Positions 54,901 through 60,900 of a stretch of DNA of 64,000 bases are shown piece after piece. The position numbers were made by a program. This DNA is from Escherichia coli (GTDB lineage Bacteria; Pseudomonadota; Gammaproteobacteria; Enterobacterales; Enterobacteriaceae): NCBI RefSeq assembly GCF_041886205.1, contig NZ_CP169029.1; one strand, given 5' to 3'. Every line of letters begins with the position of its first letter. The first letter of the stretch is position 1.

Positions 54901-57900
54901 CGTGCGCTGGCAGGGGCAAGTGGTGACCGGGAAACGCAAATATTTTGTACGAACCTGATGGCGGAACTGGTGTCCATCGCAGGTGAATACTGGCTGAGTG
55001 ATCAAATCCCAGCAGAATTTTATGGCAAAGCGGCGCGACTGCAGTTAGTCGAAAACGCTTTGACCGTTCAACCGTTAAATTGATCCCTTTTTAACAAGGA
55101 ATTTCTATGGCACGCATTATTGTTGTTACTTCGGGCAAAGGGGGTGTTGGTAAGACAACCTCCAGCGCGGCCATCGCCACTGGTTTGGCCCAGAAGGGAA
55201 AGAAAACTGTCGTGATAGATTTTGATATCGGCCTGCGTAATCTCGACCTGATTATGGGTTGTGAACGCCGGGTCGTTTACGATTTCGTCAACGTCATTCA
55301 GGGCGATGCAACGCTAAATCAGGCGTTAATTAAAGATAAGCGTACTGAAAATCTCTATATTCTGCCGGCATCGCAAACACGCGATAAAGATGCCCTCACC
55401 CGTGAAGGGGTCGCCAAAGTTCTTGATGATCTGAAAGCGATGGATTTTGAATTTATCGTTTGTGACTCCCCGGCAGGGATTGAAACCGGTGCGTTAATGG
55501 CACTCTATTTTGCAGACGAAGCCATTATTACCACCAACCCGGAAGTCTCCTCAGTACGCGACTCTGACCGTATTTTAGGCATTCTGGCGTCGAAATCACG
55601 CCGCGCAGAAAATGGCGAAGAGCCTATTAAAGAGCACCTGCTGTTAACGCGCTATAACCCAGGCCGCGTAAGCAGAGGTGACATGCTGAGCATGGAAGAT
55701 GTGCTGGAGATCCTGCGCATCAAACTCGTCGGCGTGATCCCAGAGGATCAATCAGTATTGCGCGCCTCTAACCAGGGTGAACCGGTCATTCTCGACATTA
55801 ACGCCGATGCGGGTAAAGCCTACGCAGATACCGTAGAACGTCTGTTGGGAGAAGAACGTCCTTTCCGCTTCATTGAAGAAGAGAAGAAAGGCTTCCTCAA
55901 ACGCTTGTTCGGAGGATAAGTTATGGCATTACTCGATTTCTTTCTCTCGCGGAAGAAAAACACAGCCAACATTGCAAAAGAACGGCTGCAGATTATTGTT
56001 GCTGAACGCCGTCGCAGCGATGCAGAACCGCATTATCTGCCGCAGTTGCGTAAAGATATTCTTGAGGTCATTTGTAAATACGTACAAATTGATCCTGAGA
56101 TGGTAACCGTACAGCTTGAGCAAAAAGATGGCGATATTTCTATTCTTGAGCTGAACGTGACCTTACCGGAAGCAGAAGAGCTGAAATAATCCCGCTGTAA
56201 AAGCGCATTTATCTTCAAGGCAGAGTTATCTCTGCCTTGAGTTTTTCATCCCTCTCATCCACGTTGTGGTAAAGCGGCGAGTATTCTTGCTGATACTCCT
56301 CATTGCTATTTCCACCTCCCCCTTTACACCTTAAGGCTGTTCCCACGCACAAAACAAAATGTTTATGCCTGGTTGAGTAAATAACCTTATTGTTAGTGCG
56401 GATATACTGGGAGATGATAACCCCGCAATTTCATTATTCATTGTTCTCCCATAGGATGAGGTTTCCCGCCGTAACTGGCGGGCTTTTTTTGCCCCAGAAT
56501 TTTCTCTTTCAACATCCTGTAAACGAAAACTGCGCCGAAGCGCAGTTTAATCGTTGATGGTCAGAACGACCAGTTCACACCAGCCACCGCATTCCACGGG
56601 GATTCCACACCGGCACCATGGCTATACCCCATCCCGAGATGCCCGCTTAACGTACTGCTGAATGAGGCTTTAATACCTGCCTGGTATATTCCACGTCTGC
56701 CCGACAAATCATTGACAAAATTACCGTCACTATTCACTTTCACCCGATTATCATCGACAAATTCTTTGCGCAAAGCCGCCTTCAGCCAGGGTTCAATTTC
56801 TATACCGTTCCCCAGACGCATGTTGTAACTCAGCGTTGCGCCCAGTTCACGATATATACTGCGGGTATCGACTGATTTCGATTCCATGCCATTGGATAAA
56901 TGATATTCAGGGTTATCAGCGGTGAACCCCGTTAACGATGCATACGGCGTCAGGTTCCAGTTACCATCGGTAAATCGCATCCCGGTTTCAATGTGACCAC
57001 CCAGCCCGTTGCTGCGATAACTGCCGTTGGCGGCTCCACCGCTGCTCATTTTACCGGCTACGTTACTTTCAAAACGGTTCAGCTTCACGACACCGTCCAG
57101 ATAGAAACCACTTTCATGTTCCCAACTGGCATAGCCGCCCAGAGAATAACTGCCCACACAGCCATGTCCTCCGCGATCAAAACCGATATGTGAATGGGAA
57201 TAACCCATAAAAGCGCCCAGCGTGGCAATTCCTTCAGGAATATCATTACGGCTGTCGATCCCCACGGTCATTCCGGTCAGCGTCTGCTCAAACCCGGCAC
57301 CCGCATCGGTGGTGACATTATTACGGGTGTTATACGTCGCCCCCCAGACATTATTGTTGTGTGGACTCGCTTTCATTATGTTCAACCGCTCGCGAATACT
57401 GTTTAGCTCAGCATCAAATACCAACGGTAATGTTGCAGCCATATTGAGTACGGCTGCCGTAGAAGGCGTGATGCGTTTCTCCGGAACGGGTGTCGGCGTT
57501 GGATCGGGAGTCGGGTCTGGATTTGGGTTTGGGTTCGGGTTTGGGTTTGGGTTTGGGTTCGGGTTTGGGTTTGGGTTTGGGTTTGGGTTCGGGTTTGGGT
57601 TCGGGTTCGGGTTCGGGTTCGGGTTCGGATTTGGGTTCGGATTTGGGTTCGGATTTGGGTTTGGGTTTGGGTTTGGGTTTGGGTTTGGGTTGACATTATT
57701 GGTCAGGTTCCAGTTACTGTTACCGTCACTTTTCAGGACATACTCATAGGTCCCAAGATCAACGAAACCGCCAGTATTGCCCAGCGTAAACGAAGCATCC
57801 CCTCCCCCTGTTTTCACCAGCGTCATCGCGTCGTCAGACTGAGGGCTGACGCCGGTATCCTGAACAAAGATTTTAAAATTACCAGTGGCGTTGTTGTTGA

Positions 57901-60900
57901 CGACCAGTTGATCGCCCCGGGAGCCTGCAACGTTGGTATGCAGGTAGAAGTTACCGCTGCCGGAAAGTTCATTGGTTGTCAGAGTGTTGTAGATACCGTT
58001 AGTTGTGGCAGGCGCTGATAAATAAACATCACCGTCGTTGAGTAGCAAACTGTTTACTCTATATTCGCAGTTGCTGGTACCTGCACAGGAATTATTGCTG
58101 TTAAGCCAGACACTGCCCCGGCTGGCAGCCGTCAGGTCGGCAAGCGTCGTATCGACGCCATTTCCGATAGTTAATGTCGCGCTATCGGTAATCCGGACCG
58201 CCCCTTCAAGTTTAACTGGCGTAACATTATCCCGTGGCGTCATTAACGACAGGCTTCCTGTCGCGCCACTGACCGATGCATCCGCCAGCGTACCTGCGTA
58301 GACGATTGCCGTCCCGTCAGTGACCTGGAGATCTTCTGCCCGGGCCAGAGCCTGAAACTCATCTTTTGACCGCCCAAGGGTATATTGCCCGCCAGAGTTA
58401 ACCTTTGTGGCGGAGTCCTGACCCAGGTTTTGCATTGCACCACCCTTGCCAACCGTGGAGTCACGGGCTTCGGTACCTGCTAATACCAATAAATTACCGC
58501 CATTTTCCAGCAACACATTGGTCGCTAAATTGCCGGCAATGGAAAAGGTACCGTACTGGTGAGTACCGCTGATTTCAATACCGTTAGCCGTGCTCGTCTG
58601 GAGAGCGGCACCGCTGTTCTGGACGATATCTGTCGCTTTGCCATTATCGTTGACTGTCAGCGTACCGCCTTCATTGATCGTTGTTTTTATTGCCTCACCG
58701 TTAGCCGAAACTGTTTGTATTCCGCCGTCGTTAATCGTTGTCTCATTCGCCACACCCTCGACGATTTGTTCGCCACCAGTGAGCGCCGAGCCTGTCGCAG
58801 TGGCTTTTGTTTTGACGATCTCCCGTCCGCCCGTATTGACCTGTGTTTTGGCGGAAGTGGTGTCTGACTCCACGGTTAACACGCCGCCATTTGCCAGCAG
58901 GATATTGTTCGCCGCACCCTGCTCGATGCTGAACGCGACGCCATCAGCGCGTGTCCCTGTGACCCGCGTCGCCCTGGTGGTTGCAACCAACGCGCCCTGA
59001 CTACTCTGCTGTATCCCCGTTGCGCTGCCTTTCTCCCGCACATCGAGTGTGCCGCCATTGTTAAGTCTGGTGGTATATGCTACGGCCTCCTCGTGGACAA
59101 TCATCTTACCGCCAGCATCAACGATGGTATCTACCGCCGAGGTTTGAGCTACAACCGTCAGTTCGCCGGTATTTTCCAGCACAACATGCTCAGCCCTGCC
59201 TCCGGTAATAGTGAAGTGAGAGGACCTCTGGTATCCGTCAATATCAGTCCCCGCGCCCGTGTTGGCAACTAAAGCGCTCCCCGTGTCCAGGTAAACCCCA
59301 TGTGCGATACCGCCGGTATCGACAATCAGCGTGCCTCCGGCGCGAATATTGCTGCCAGTTGCCGTACCTCCTTTCTCAACAACCTGCTTGCTCCCGGAAG
59401 CGATATTTGTTGTGTCAGCTTTCCCGCCGCTCTTGATATTTTGCGTGCCACTGTTGATATTTGTTCCCGTAGCAATACCATGATTATAAATATTCTGTGT
59501 ACCGCCATTAATTATGGTATTAGTCGCGCTCCCGGCAACATCCATGGCCCCGCCGTTATCTATTCGGGTCGCATCAGCTTTAGCATTCGTTAAAACTGAC
59601 ATTGTTCCTTTATCGTTAATTATCGTCCCTGTAGAAATTCCTCCCTCACTAATTGTCTGGCTGCCACCGTTAATGACTGTATTATTAGCCTGCCCCTGAT
59701 AAGAGCCATGACCAGATACCTCTTGATGTCCACCAGTATCAATAATACTTCCATTAGAAATCCCGCCATATACCTCCTGATTGCCGTGATTGATGATATG
59801 AGCGTTATTTGTTGTACCTCGTTCATCTACTCTTTGGCTGCCGTCTACAGTCTCATCATTTACAACGCCAATAACATTAGAAGTGAAGGCCGTCATCCCA
59901 GGCGGGGCATATATCATGGCAGATATCAATAAGGAAAGTGCTGAGCGGTGAAAATAATAGCGACTGATTCTGTTCATAAATTTCATCCTCTGAAAAATGA
60001 ATACTGAGTAGCGTCTAAGTGACCTTAGCTCGGCTGCAACATCAGCCCGCAGGCACCAGACCAGGGGATTCATCCTGAAGAGACAGCGCAGGTGTATTGT
60101 GTTCACCGCTCACCAAAGACATCATGATGAAATGATGATATCCCGCATAAGAAAGAGGCATTTTTTAAACGCAGTGCGCTGAAGTGTAGTTGGATAAAAA
60201 ATCACTCTTTTCAGATAATACTGTCGTACGCTTATCTTTCGACAATGAGGCCGTCGGCAAAATAAAATGACTAATGTAATCGTTGCTGATGAATATCTTC
60301 TGCTCACATAAAAATCACACAATAATATTGATAAATCAGATTATCTTACCTTTACAACATTGCGTTAACAGTCAATGACACTTCTTGAATAAAAATATTG
60401 CCAATCAATGAGTTATTCCTCATTTAAGATTATTCTCATTCACGTAAAAAACATAATTCCTATCATCACAGCCACGCTCATTTTGAATTATCTGAATAAT
60501 AGCGAGCGTTCTTTAGTTAAGCAGATCTTAATTGAAGACGAAATTATTGTGTGTGCAACTTACTTAATACCGGACATCTAAGTTGAAGAAAAAAATACTT
60601 GCCTTCGGGCTTATCTCAGCATTGTTCTGCTCCACGCCAGCGATGGCGGATATGAATCGCACCACGAAAGGTGCATTGCTAGGCGCAGGCGTTGGTTTAC
60701 TTACTGGCAATGGTGTTAATGGCGTACTGAAAGGTGCAGCTGTTGGCGCTGGTGTTGGTGCAGTAACAGAAAAAGGCCGCGACGGTAAAAATGCGCGTAA
60801 AGGTGCAAAAGTAGGTGCCGCCGTTGGTGCTGTCACTGGCGTTCTGACCGGCAATGGCCTCGAAGGGGCGATTAAAGGTGCCGTGATTGGCGGTACGGGT

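What the first reader, a model, noticed from the sequence alone, without database searches (positions are those of the whole stretch)
56561..59986. Intact large autotransporter adjacent to minE where K-12 carries only a gene remnant
The ORF is uninterrupted over about 3.4 kb with a signal peptide, repetitive Gly/Thr/Asn-rich passenger, linker and a C-terminal beta-barrel ending in NWSF, and has its own terminator. From memory, the equivalent K-12 locus (ycgI) is annotated as a pseudogene fragment, so this window appears to preserve the ancestral full-length adhesin. Two neighbouring autotransporters in the same window (ycgV, ycgH) are frameshifted, making this the only potentially functional one here.
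Basis: partly seen in the sequence, partly recalled or inferred. Interest (0 to 1): 0.45.

Follow-up and report, generated by a model that had tools for sequence, protein, structure and literature searches.

The report
Intact ycgI autotransporter, paralog of YpjA/EhaD
This E. coli window carries an intact surface-adhesin gene next to minE that K-12 and about 83% of sequenced E. coli have reduced to a 344-bp stump; it is an ordinary autotransporter, a close sister of the known YpjA/EhaD adhesin, and databases give it that adhesin's name.

Summary
Window 56561..59977 (- strand) is an uninterrupted 1138-codon gene. The product is a classical type Va autotransporter: signal peptide, AIDA-type beta-helix repeats, pertactin-like autochaperone domain, an (Asn-Pro)n linker, a linker helix and a beta-barrel ending NWSF, with its own terminator hairpin.

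K-12 lacks window 56906..60006 exactly, and its pseudogene ycgI (b4521) is the last 344 bp. Among 5,426 complete E. coli genomes:
- 4,526 (83%) carry the K-12 deletion junction.
- 422 (7.8%) carry the full-length locus.
- O157:H7 has a different remnant, next to an IS element.

All 12 full-length alleles examined are intact, with dN/dS of 0.07-0.18. E. albertii has a syntenic autotransporter beside minE, so the full-length state is ancestral. ycgV and ycgH are indeed broken in this window.

It shares 87-95% nucleotide identity, including a roughly 350-nt leader, and RefSeq labels it "ypjA". Similarity-based prevalence counts therefore mix the two loci.

Verdict: real, correctly read, but ordinary. 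It is an uncharacterised member of a known adhesin family.

The parts
56561..59977 (-). Full-length ycgI-locus autotransporter CDS, 1138 aa including stop codon position; no internal stop
59888..59977 (-). Predicted Sec signal peptide (aa 1-30, MNRISRYYFHRSALSLLISAMIYAPPGMTA|FT): basic N-region, hydrophobic core (Kyte-Doolittle 2.1 at aa 13-23), M-T-A before the putative cleavage site
   Evidence: Sequence inspection and hydropathy. No dedicated predictor was available.
58388..59698 (-). AIDA-type beta-helix repeat region of the passenger (six Pfam PF16168 hits; five TIGR04415 repeat stretches)
   Evidence: PDB sequence matches to an AidA-I family adhesin, Ag43 and TibA passengers.
57701..58057 (-). 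Pertactin-like (autochaperone) domain, PF03212, E=6e-47
   Evidence: matches pertactin 1dab
57488..57691 (-). (Asn-Pro)29 plus D/T-P linker. The DNA is a 6-bp tandem repeat (about 30 copies at 57513..57691). It is an in-frame length-variable tract and the only site of length variation among 12 alleles.
57371..57481 (-). Linker segment EKRITPSTAAVLNMAATLPLVFDAELNSIRERLNIMK, the presumed pore-spanning alpha-helix
   Evidence: Aligned within the BrkA translocator 3qq2 match to aa 856-1138. Conserved in E. albertii.
56633..57349 (-). Autotransporter beta-barrel domain (PF03797, E=6e-45); the protein ends NWSF
56515..56546 (-). Intrinsic terminator hairpin of the autotransporter gene (AAACUGCGC-UUCG-GCGCAGUUU, then UCGUUU)
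   Evidence: The same hairpin is present in E. albertii. It was not listed by the consensus scan, probably because the scan extended the stem into the T run.
59978..60355 (-). AT-rich (38.6% GC) upstream leader and promoter region. About 87-94% of it is shared with the region upstream of ypjA. It contains the annotated small ORFs ymgJ (60122..60307) and a 39-aa ORF (60042..60161), and promoter-like hexamers at 60368..60340 and 60242..60215.
56906..60006 (.). Interval missing in K-12 (3,101 bp). It removes the start codon, the whole passenger and two thirds of the barrel. The junction has 1 nt of microhomology.
56561..56905 (-). Part of the gene that survives in K-12 as pseudogene ycgI (b4521)
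55923..56189 (+). minE, convergent with the autotransporter gene; its own terminators are at 56214..56241 and 56465..56482
21375..24244 (+). ycgV, frameshifted (+2 nt near 21833) relative to the intact 955-aa K-12 gene
61324..63442 (-). ycgH pseudogene: two overlapping ORFs in different frames, and a 543-bp deletion relative to K-12's ycgH pseudogene
   Evidence: Annotated 'frameshifted' in the 99.7%-identical strain.

Best explanation
This is the intact form of the gene whose 3' stump K-12 annotates as pseudogene ycgI. It encodes a classical (type Va) AIDA-I-type autotransporter and is a close paralog of the adhesin YpjA/EhaD.

Inferred mechanism:
1. The 30-residue signal peptide takes the precursor through Sec.
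2. The C-terminal roughly 280 residues insert as a beta-barrel via BAM, using the terminal Phe signal.
3. The linker helix sits in the pore.
4. The roughly 730-residue Gly/Thr/Asn-rich beta-helical passenger is exported. Its folding is nucleated by the pertactin-like autochaperone domain.
5. The passenger is held away from the surface by a proline-rich (Asn-Pro)n spacer whose length changes in frame by 6-bp slippage.

By analogy with YpjA/EhaD it most likely promotes adhesion and biofilm formation. It is probably poorly expressed under laboratory conditions from its AT-rich leader.

Evolution: an autotransporter at this position predates the E. coli / E. albertii split. One 3.1-kb deletion now dominates E. 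coli, O157:H7 lost the gene in a separate event next to an IS element, and about 8% of genomes keep it under purifying selection.

Shown here: the architecture, the deletion, the prevalence, the paralogy, the synteny and the selective constraint. Inferred: secretion, adhesive function and regulation.
For: - Architecture: Pfam AIDA x6, Pertactin and Autotransporter domains; TIGR01414 at 309 bits; PDB sequence matches to AidA-I family, Ag43 and TibA passengers, pertactin, and the BrkA and Vag8 translocators.
- Deletion: K-12 aligns to window 54001-56905 and 60007-62802 with a shared junction at the first base of ycgI.
- Prevalence in 5,426 complete genomes: K-12 junction in 4,526; sequence beyond the K-12 breakpoint at the minE locus in 712; the whole locus with both unique flanks in 422.
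- O157:H7 has a 753-bp remnant abutting IS1203.
- Constraint: 12 of 12 sampled full-length alleles have no internal stop (the 11 RefSeq alleles carry no pseudogene flag). Pairwise dN/dS is 0.07-0.18. All length variation (1108-1144 aa) lies in the NP tract.
- Paralogy: against K-12 ypjA, 95.5% nt identity in the 3' 1 kb, 94.6% in the middle, and 87% in the 5' part and leader. YpjA has about 388 more passenger residues.
- Outgroup: E. albertii has a syntenic autotransporter beside minEDC.
- Function of the paralog: YpjA/EhaD is linked to adhesion and biofilm formation (PMC3796261, PMC9289746, PMC4076661, PMC12547504).
Against: - No expression, secretion or adhesion data exist for this gene. The function is carried over from a paralog whose passenger is 388 residues longer and only about 80% identical.
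- 83% of E. coli genomes have lost the gene and both neighbouring autotransporters are decayed, so it is dispensable in most lineages.
- Promoter evidence is limited to consensus matches, and H-NS silencing is only suggested by 38.6% GC upstream.
- The signal peptide was judged by eye.
- The E. albertii ORF is cut by the contig end and its passenger is only about 53% identical, so 'ancestral' applies firmly to an autotransporter at the locus but less firmly to this particular passenger.
- Only one outgroup species was recovered.
Confidence: 0.85

Rival explanations
1. The gene is simply ypjA/EhaD itself, as RefSeq labels it: the same gene sitting at a different map position in this strain, not a separate locus.
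For: PGAP gives it the gene symbol ypjA and the product name 'adhesin-like autotransporter YpjA/EhaD' in every full-length genome inspected. Nucleotide identity to K-12 ypjA is 92-95% over most of the gene.
Against: - K-12 has both the ycgI stump at minE and an intact ypjA at 2.78 Mb beside pinH, ypjB and ileY.
- Most genomes with the full-length minE copy show a second matching place.
- The minE copy is 388 aa shorter, its 5' end is only 87% identical, and its flanks are unrelated beyond about 375 bp upstream and 10 bp downstream.
- E. albertii has the minE-linked copy in synteny.
Confidence: 0.03
2. The ORF is intact but effectively dead. It would be a silent gene on its way to becoming a pseudogene like ycgV, ycgH and K-12 ycgI, intact only because too little time has passed.
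For: It has been lost in at least 88% of E. coli by at least two independent events. Both neighbouring autotransporters are disrupted in this window. One full-length locus carries an IS903B insertion (H9). The upstream region is AT-rich and typical of silenced genes.
Against: 12 of 12 alleles differing by up to 3.4% in protein sequence are all open. dN/dS is 0.07-0.18 in both the passenger and the barrel, which is not expected for a neutrally drifting sequence. The repeat tract varies only in multiples of 6 bp.
Confidence: 0.1
3. The full-length allele in this K-12-like background was not retained vertically. It was brought back by homologous recombination from another E. coli lineage, or patched by gene conversion from ypjA.
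For: - Window versus K-12: 0 differences across minCDE (54001-56189), then 14 differences including a 1-nt indel within 56591-56840, and 0.75-2% divergence upstream of the deletion.
- In the barrel region, ycgI and ypjA alleles are about 96% identical all-against-all, with no clustering by locus.
- Strain MB53's linker has YpjA-like KPDP units.
Against: - minCDE is under very strong constraint, so zero differences there is a weak baseline.
- The K-12 stump is an unconstrained pseudogene with private changes.
- The 5' 600 bp of the gene is only 87% identical to ypjA, so the allele as a whole is not a ypjA conversion product.
- No formal recombination test was run.
Confidence: 0.3

Closest known systems
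YpjA (E. coli K-12 b2647) / EhaD (O157:H7), an AIDA-I-type autotransporter adhesin
   Same: Same domain order and a near-identical signal peptide. Nucleotide identity is 95% in the barrel and linker and 94.6% in the distal passenger. The roughly 350-nt leader is shared at 87-94%. Both have a proline-rich linker, and RefSeq gives both the same name.
   Different: Different chromosomal locus: minE-ymgJ rather than pinH/ypjB/ileY beside the CP4-57 prophage. It is 388 aa shorter, with fewer AIDA repeats. The 5' part is 87% identical. It has a long pure (NP)29 tract where YpjA has NPKPDPKPDP... (28 aa). Protein identity is about 80% over aa 119-1138. It has not been characterised experimentally.
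ycgI (b4521), the K-12 pseudogene
   Same: Same locus and orientation. The 344-bp stump aligns to the last 344 bp of this gene at about 96% identity.
   Different: K-12 lacks 3,101 bp: the start codon, the passenger and most of the barrel. The stump also has a 1-nt deletion.
AIDA-I, Ag43/Cah and TibA (self-associating autotransporters)
   Same: AIDA-type repeats, a beta-helical passenger, an autochaperone domain and a 12-strand-type barrel domain. There are sequence matches to the solved passengers 7ko9, 4kh3 and 4q1q.
   Different: Scores are far below the NCBIfam equivalog cut-offs (Ag43 178 against 1200; AIDA-I 156 against 1200). There is no adjacent heptosyltransferase gene. Self-association has not been tested.
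E. albertii NBRC 107761 minE-linked autotransporter
   Same: Syntenic beside minE-minD-minC. It has the same terminator hairpin, linker helix motif, proline-rich spacer and a barrel ending SWSF.
   Different: The passenger is strongly diverged (53% aa identity overall, barrel DNA 76-81%). The spacer is short (NPDPKPDPDPDPKPDPTPVP). The ORF is cut by the contig end.

Membership tests
Classical (type Va) autotransporter | C-terminal autotransporter beta-barrel translocator domain | tested here: met
   PF03797, E=5.6e-45, nearly full model. TIGR01414, 309 bits against a cut-off of 16. Match to the BrkA translocator 3qq2 over aa 856-1138.
Classical (type Va) autotransporter | N-terminal Sec signal peptide | tested here: inconclusive
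   A basic N-region, a hydrophobic core and an M-T-A motif are seen by inspection and hydropathy, and the segment is near-identical to the K-12 YpjA N-terminus. No signal-peptide predictor was available.
Classical (type Va) autotransporter | C-terminal aromatic residue (BAM beta-signal) | tested here: met
   The protein ends ...AGVNWSF.
Classical (type Va) autotransporter | Passenger actually exported to the cell surface | not testable with these tools
   Needs expression plus protease accessibility or immunofluorescence.
AIDA-I-type adhesin subgroup | AIDA beta-helix repeats plus a pertactin-like autochaperone domain | tested here: met
   Six PF16168 hits (E from 5e-21 to 7e-5) and PF03212 at E=6e-47. 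TIGR04415 repeat, 120 bits against a cut-off of 30.
AIDA-I or Ag43 equivalogs | Score above the NCBIfam equivalog cut-off | tested here: not met
   NF033176 scores 156 against 1200 and NF033177 scores 178 against 1200.
YpjA/EhaD ortholog | Same chromosomal locus as b2647 (between the CP4-57 end and pinH/ypjB/ileY) | tested here: not met
   The gene lies between minE and ymgJ. K-12 has both loci. It is a paralog, not an ortholog.
YpjA/EhaD ortholog | Full-length collinearity with YpjA (1526 aa) | tested here: not met
   1138 aa. About 388 passenger residues are missing relative to YpjA, and identity over aa 119-1138 is about 80%.
ycgI (b4521) ortholog, intact form | Same flanks as K-12 ycgI, with the K-12 stump collinear with the gene's 3' end | tested here: met
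   The flanks align at 98.4-99.4%, and the deletion junction falls at the first base of annotated ycgI.
Phase-variable surface protein (on/off switching by repeat slippage) | Repeat unit not a multiple of 3, or repeat located in the promoter | tested here: not met
   The repeat unit is 6 bp and lies inside the CDS. All 12 alleles stay in frame.

The most novel reading that the evidence does not exclude
ycgI and ypjA may form a two-locus adhesin system that exchanges sequence by gene conversion. The core minE-linked copy would be the original and the island-borne ypjA its derivative, or the reverse. That would explain three observations: barrel alleles from the two loci are intermixed, one ycgI allele carries a YpjA-type linker, and the paralogs are far closer to each other (about 95%) than to the E. 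albertii ortholog (about 78%). Because RefSeq and similarity-based adhesin typing call both 'ypjA', published ypjA/ehaD prevalence and host-association statistics would partly reflect the minE locus.
Probability: 0.25. Interest if true: 0.4.

Novelty: new member of a known kind. Interest (0 to 1): 0.25.

Why it matters
The practical value is modest. The work gives the K-12 pseudogene ycgI a full-length reference form and an exact deletion map. It also shows that the intact gene is a minority allele (about 8%) that is nonetheless under selective constraint.

It flags a naming problem. Two distinct loci are both labelled ypjA/EhaD in RefSeq and are 92-95% identical. BLAST-based adhesin surveys such as VFDB-based screens and adhesiomeR may therefore conflate them. 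The papers score ypjA presence or absence in this way, and none distinguishes the minE locus.

The gene does not open a new mechanism. It is a standard AIDA-I-type autotransporter.

Tried and rejected
- Coverage-based prevalence. The first counts (2,432 and 2,481 genomes with at least 80% coverage) were rejected once the K-12 hits turned out to lie at the ypjA locus. A 5' junction query was also confounded, because the leader is shared with ypjA. I replaced these with locus-specific queries that include unique flanks.
- Exact-sequence lookup of the 1138-aa protein: not in the collection, probably because of its particular repeat number.
- Rfam scan of 56100-60700 at E up to 1: no RNA family in the leader or intergenic regions.
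Its exact peptide patterns did not reach ypjA or other Escherichia species, so only one outgroup is available.
- A position-by-position comparison of the K-12 stump was invalid because of a 1-nt indel. It was redone on an alignment.
- The consensus terminator scan listed many false '+'-strand terminators inside the GGGTTT repeat and missed the real hairpin. The hairpin was checked by folding.
- PDB matches to circumsporozoite protein and other proline-rich proteins are low-complexity matches to the NP tract and were ignored.
- On/off phase variation through the repeat was considered and rejected because the unit is 6 bp.
- ymgJ and the 39-aa upstream ORF were considered as real co-transcribed genes. 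The ymgJ frame is broken in the ypjA leader, and all differences in the 39-aa ORF between the paralogs are non-synonymous. The conservation therefore looks like conservation of nucleotide sequence rather than of a protein.
- Structure prediction was not run. The domain evidence was already decisive.

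
Full report
**1. What is in the sequence**

The only long ORF at the reported position runs on the minus strand from 60106 (GTG) to 56561, with no internal stop. The next ATG, at 59977, is 8 nt downstream of it. That ATG is also the start RefSeq uses in a 99.7%-identical strain, and it gives an N-terminus (MNRISRYYFHRS...) matching K-12 YpjA's MNRTSPYYCRRS. I therefore take the CDS as 56561..59977, 1138 aa.

Domain evidence:
- Pfam finds six significant AIDA repeat domains (aa 97-533), a Pertactin domain (E=6e-47) and the Autotransporter beta-domain (E=6e-45).
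- NCBIfam TIGR01414 scores 309 bits against a cut-off of 16. The AIDA-I, Ag43 and YfaL equivalog models all fall far below their cut-offs.
- Sequence search of the PDB matches AidA-I family, Ag43 and TibA passengers, pertactin, and the BrkA and Vag8 translocators.

Between the autochaperone domain and the linker helix lies an (Asn-Pro)29 tract followed by D/T-P units. It is encoded by a 6-bp tandem repeat of about 30 copies at 57513..57691. The protein ends NWSF.

Fifteen nucleotides after the stop codon there is a 9-bp hairpin with a UUCG loop followed by a U-rich run (dG -19.9 kcal/mol for the 55 nt folded, z = -4.2).

**2. The K-12 comparison**

K-12 MG1655 annotates ycgI (b4521) as a 344-bp pseudogene between ymgJ and minE.

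BLAST of the window against that K-12 region gives two collinear blocks: window 54001-56905 and 60007-62802. They meet at the first base of annotated ycgI. K-12 therefore lacks exactly window 56906..60006 (3,101 bp). The missing interval covers 29 bp of leader, the start codon, the whole passenger and about two thirds of the barrel. The junction shows only 1 nt of microhomology, which points to illegitimate recombination.

**3. A paralog confounds simple counts**

My first prevalence searches suggested that about 45% of genomes have the gene. However, the K-12 hits lay at 2.78 Mb, on ypjA (b2647).

| Window region compared with K-12 ypjA | Nucleotide identity |
|---|---|
| 3' 1,047 bp | 95.5% |
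| Next 1,450 bp | 94.6% |
| 5' 577 bp | 87% |
| 743-bp block: 5' end of the gene plus about 375 bp of upstream leader | 87% |

The homology ends 10 bp after the stop codon, and YpjA carries about 388 extra passenger residues.

RefSeq/PGAP labels the minE-linked gene 'ypjA: adhesin-like autotransporter YpjA/EhaD' in every genome I inspected. The two genes are nonetheless distinct loci. K-12 has both the stump and an intact ypjA, and most genomes with the full-length minE copy show a second matching place.

**4. Locus-specific prevalence**

These counts use queries that include sequence unique to the minE locus, across 5,426 complete E. coli genomes.

| State of the minE locus | Genomes | Share |
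|---|---|---|
| K-12 deletion junction, contiguous | 4,526 | 83.4% |
| Sequence beyond the K-12 breakpoint joined to the minE-side flank | 712 | 13.1% |
| Whole locus with both unique flanks | 422 | 7.8% |

- The 290 genomes that extend past the K-12 breakpoint but lack the whole locus include O157:H7. In the O157:H7 strain inspected, a 753-bp remnant abuts an IS1203 copy and different upstream DNA, so this is an independent loss.
- About 190 genomes have other structures, such as larger deletions or insertions.
- 2,304 genomes have no megablast match to the 3.1-kb passenger segment, so they lack the passenger of both paralogs.

**5. Is the full-length gene maintained?**

I examined twelve full-length alleles: the window plus eleven RefSeq genomes sampled from across the identity range (H1, H4, H7, H8, H10, H19, H154, H197-H200).
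- All are open, and none of the eleven RefSeq alleles is flagged as a pseudogene.
- Protein identity to the window allele is 96.6-99.9%.
- Pairwise dN/dS is 0.07-0.18, and similar in passenger and barrel.
- Every length difference (1108-1144 aa) falls inside the NP tract, in multiples of two residues.
- One further locus, outside this sample, carries an IS903B insertion (H9).

This pattern indicates a gene under purifying selection where it is retained. The repeat tunes spacer length and does not act as an on/off switch.

**6. Ancestry**

Its 9.6-kb contig begins inside an uninterrupted autotransporter ORF of at least 910 aa. That ORF is followed, in the same arrangement as in the window, by minE, minD and minC. 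DNA aligns continuously from the barrel through minC at 84% identity.

The E. albertii gene has the same terminator hairpin, the same linker-helix motif, a short proline-rich spacer and a barrel ending SWSF. An autotransporter at this site therefore predates the E. coli / E. albertii split.

The E. albertii passenger is much diverged (53% aa identity overall). By contrast, E. coli ycgI and ypjA are about 95-96% identical to each other in the barrel, against 76-81% to E. albertii. So either the duplication happened within the E. coli lineage or the two copies are being homogenised.

Two further points bear on that question, though I ran no formal test:
- In the barrel region, alleles of the two loci do not cluster by locus.
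- Strain MB53's ycgI carries a YpjA-like KPDP linker.

**7. Was the allele preserved or regained?**

Against K-12 the window has no differences across minCDE. It has 14 differences, including a 1-nt indel, within 56591-56840, and 0.75-2% divergence upstream of the deletion. At the variable sites both the K-12 stump and the window allele carry private changes.

Part of this is expected, since the stump is an unconstrained pseudogene lying next to a very conserved operon. It is also compatible with recombinational import of the allele. I leave this open.

**8. The neighbouring autotransporters**

- ycgV (21375..24244, + strand) is 98.7% identical to the intact K-12 gene but has two extra nucleotides. 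The reading frame changes at residue 153, near 21833.
- ycgH (61324..63442, - strand) is split into two overlapping frames and lacks 543 bp relative to K-12's own ycgH pseudogene.
- Intact ycgH genes are annotated in strains AF40 and 405.

**9. How it most likely works**

The architecture is shown; the rest is inferred from the established biology of type Va autotransporters and from the paralog. The expected steps are Sec export, BAM-dependent barrel insertion, passenger export with C-to-N folding seeded by the autochaperone domain, and display on a proline-rich spacer.

YpjA/EhaD has been linked to adhesion and biofilm formation (PMC3796261, PMC9289746, PMC4076661, PMC12547504). From my own recollection, that evidence came from overexpression.

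The leader is AT-rich (38.6% GC against 51.5% for the gene) and has only consensus-level promoter matches. No Rfam family matches it. Silencing by H-NS is plausible but untested.

**10. What is known**

In the searchable literature ycgI appears only as a pseudogene of K-12 and UTI89, or as a broken-barrel model. I found no paper that treats the intact minE-linked gene as distinct from ypjA.

It is therefore an uncharacterised member of a well-known family, already present in annotated genomes under another gene's name. The finding is correct and tidy, but a specialist would find only the paralogy and the naming conflation mildly surprising.

Noticed in passing
window 59978..60355 (- strand); L003 10728..11112: About 350 nt upstream of the start codon are conserved between the ycgI and ypjA loci (87-94%), better than the first 600 nt of coding sequence. 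The annotated ymgJ ORF is interrupted by stops in the ypjA copy. All five differences in the annotated 39-aa ORF are non-synonymous. The conservation therefore looks like a regulatory leader rather than small proteins.
   Followed up: partly
window 21375..24244 (+): ycgV carries a +2-nt frameshift near 21833 relative to the intact 955-aa K-12 gene.
   Followed up: yes
window 61324..63442 (-): ycgH is degraded differently from K-12's ycgH pseudogene (543 bp missing plus a frame break). Strains AF40 and 405 are annotated with an intact 887-aa YcgH (L006, L007).
   Followed up: partly
L005 (O157:H7 TT12B) 3623..5630: O157:H7 has a 753-bp remnant of the minE-linked autotransporter directly downstream of an IS1203 copy, with an ompT-containing region in place of ymgJ-ycgH. 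This is a loss event independent of the K-12 deletion.
   Followed up: partly
L009 (JAIJJM010000485.1, 'Collinsella sp.' MAG): A 2.5-kb contig binned as Collinsella is 95.6% identical to window 57564-60031. It is almost certainly E. coli contamination of the metagenome-assembled genome.
   Followed up: partly
L013 (strain MB53) linker region, aligned to window aa 762-821: This ycgI allele has a KPDP/KPNP-type linker resembling K-12 YpjA's instead of the pure NP tract. This is possibly gene conversion between the paralogs.
   Followed up: no
window 56591..56840 versus L001: Fourteen of the 18 differences between the window and K-12 across 54001-56905 fall in 250 bp of the gene's 3' end, including a 1-nt deletion in the K-12 stump. 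minCDE is identical.
   Followed up: partly
window 56214..56241 and 56465..56482 (+): Two terminator-like hairpins follow minE on the + strand. The second (CCCGCC-GTAA-CTGGCGGG plus a T run) faces the autotransporter terminator, giving a convergent terminator pair that is conserved in E. albertii.
   Followed up: partly
E. coli genome collection: Up to 15 matching places lie on plasmid records, so sequence similar to this autotransporter region also occurs on a few plasmids.
   Followed up: no
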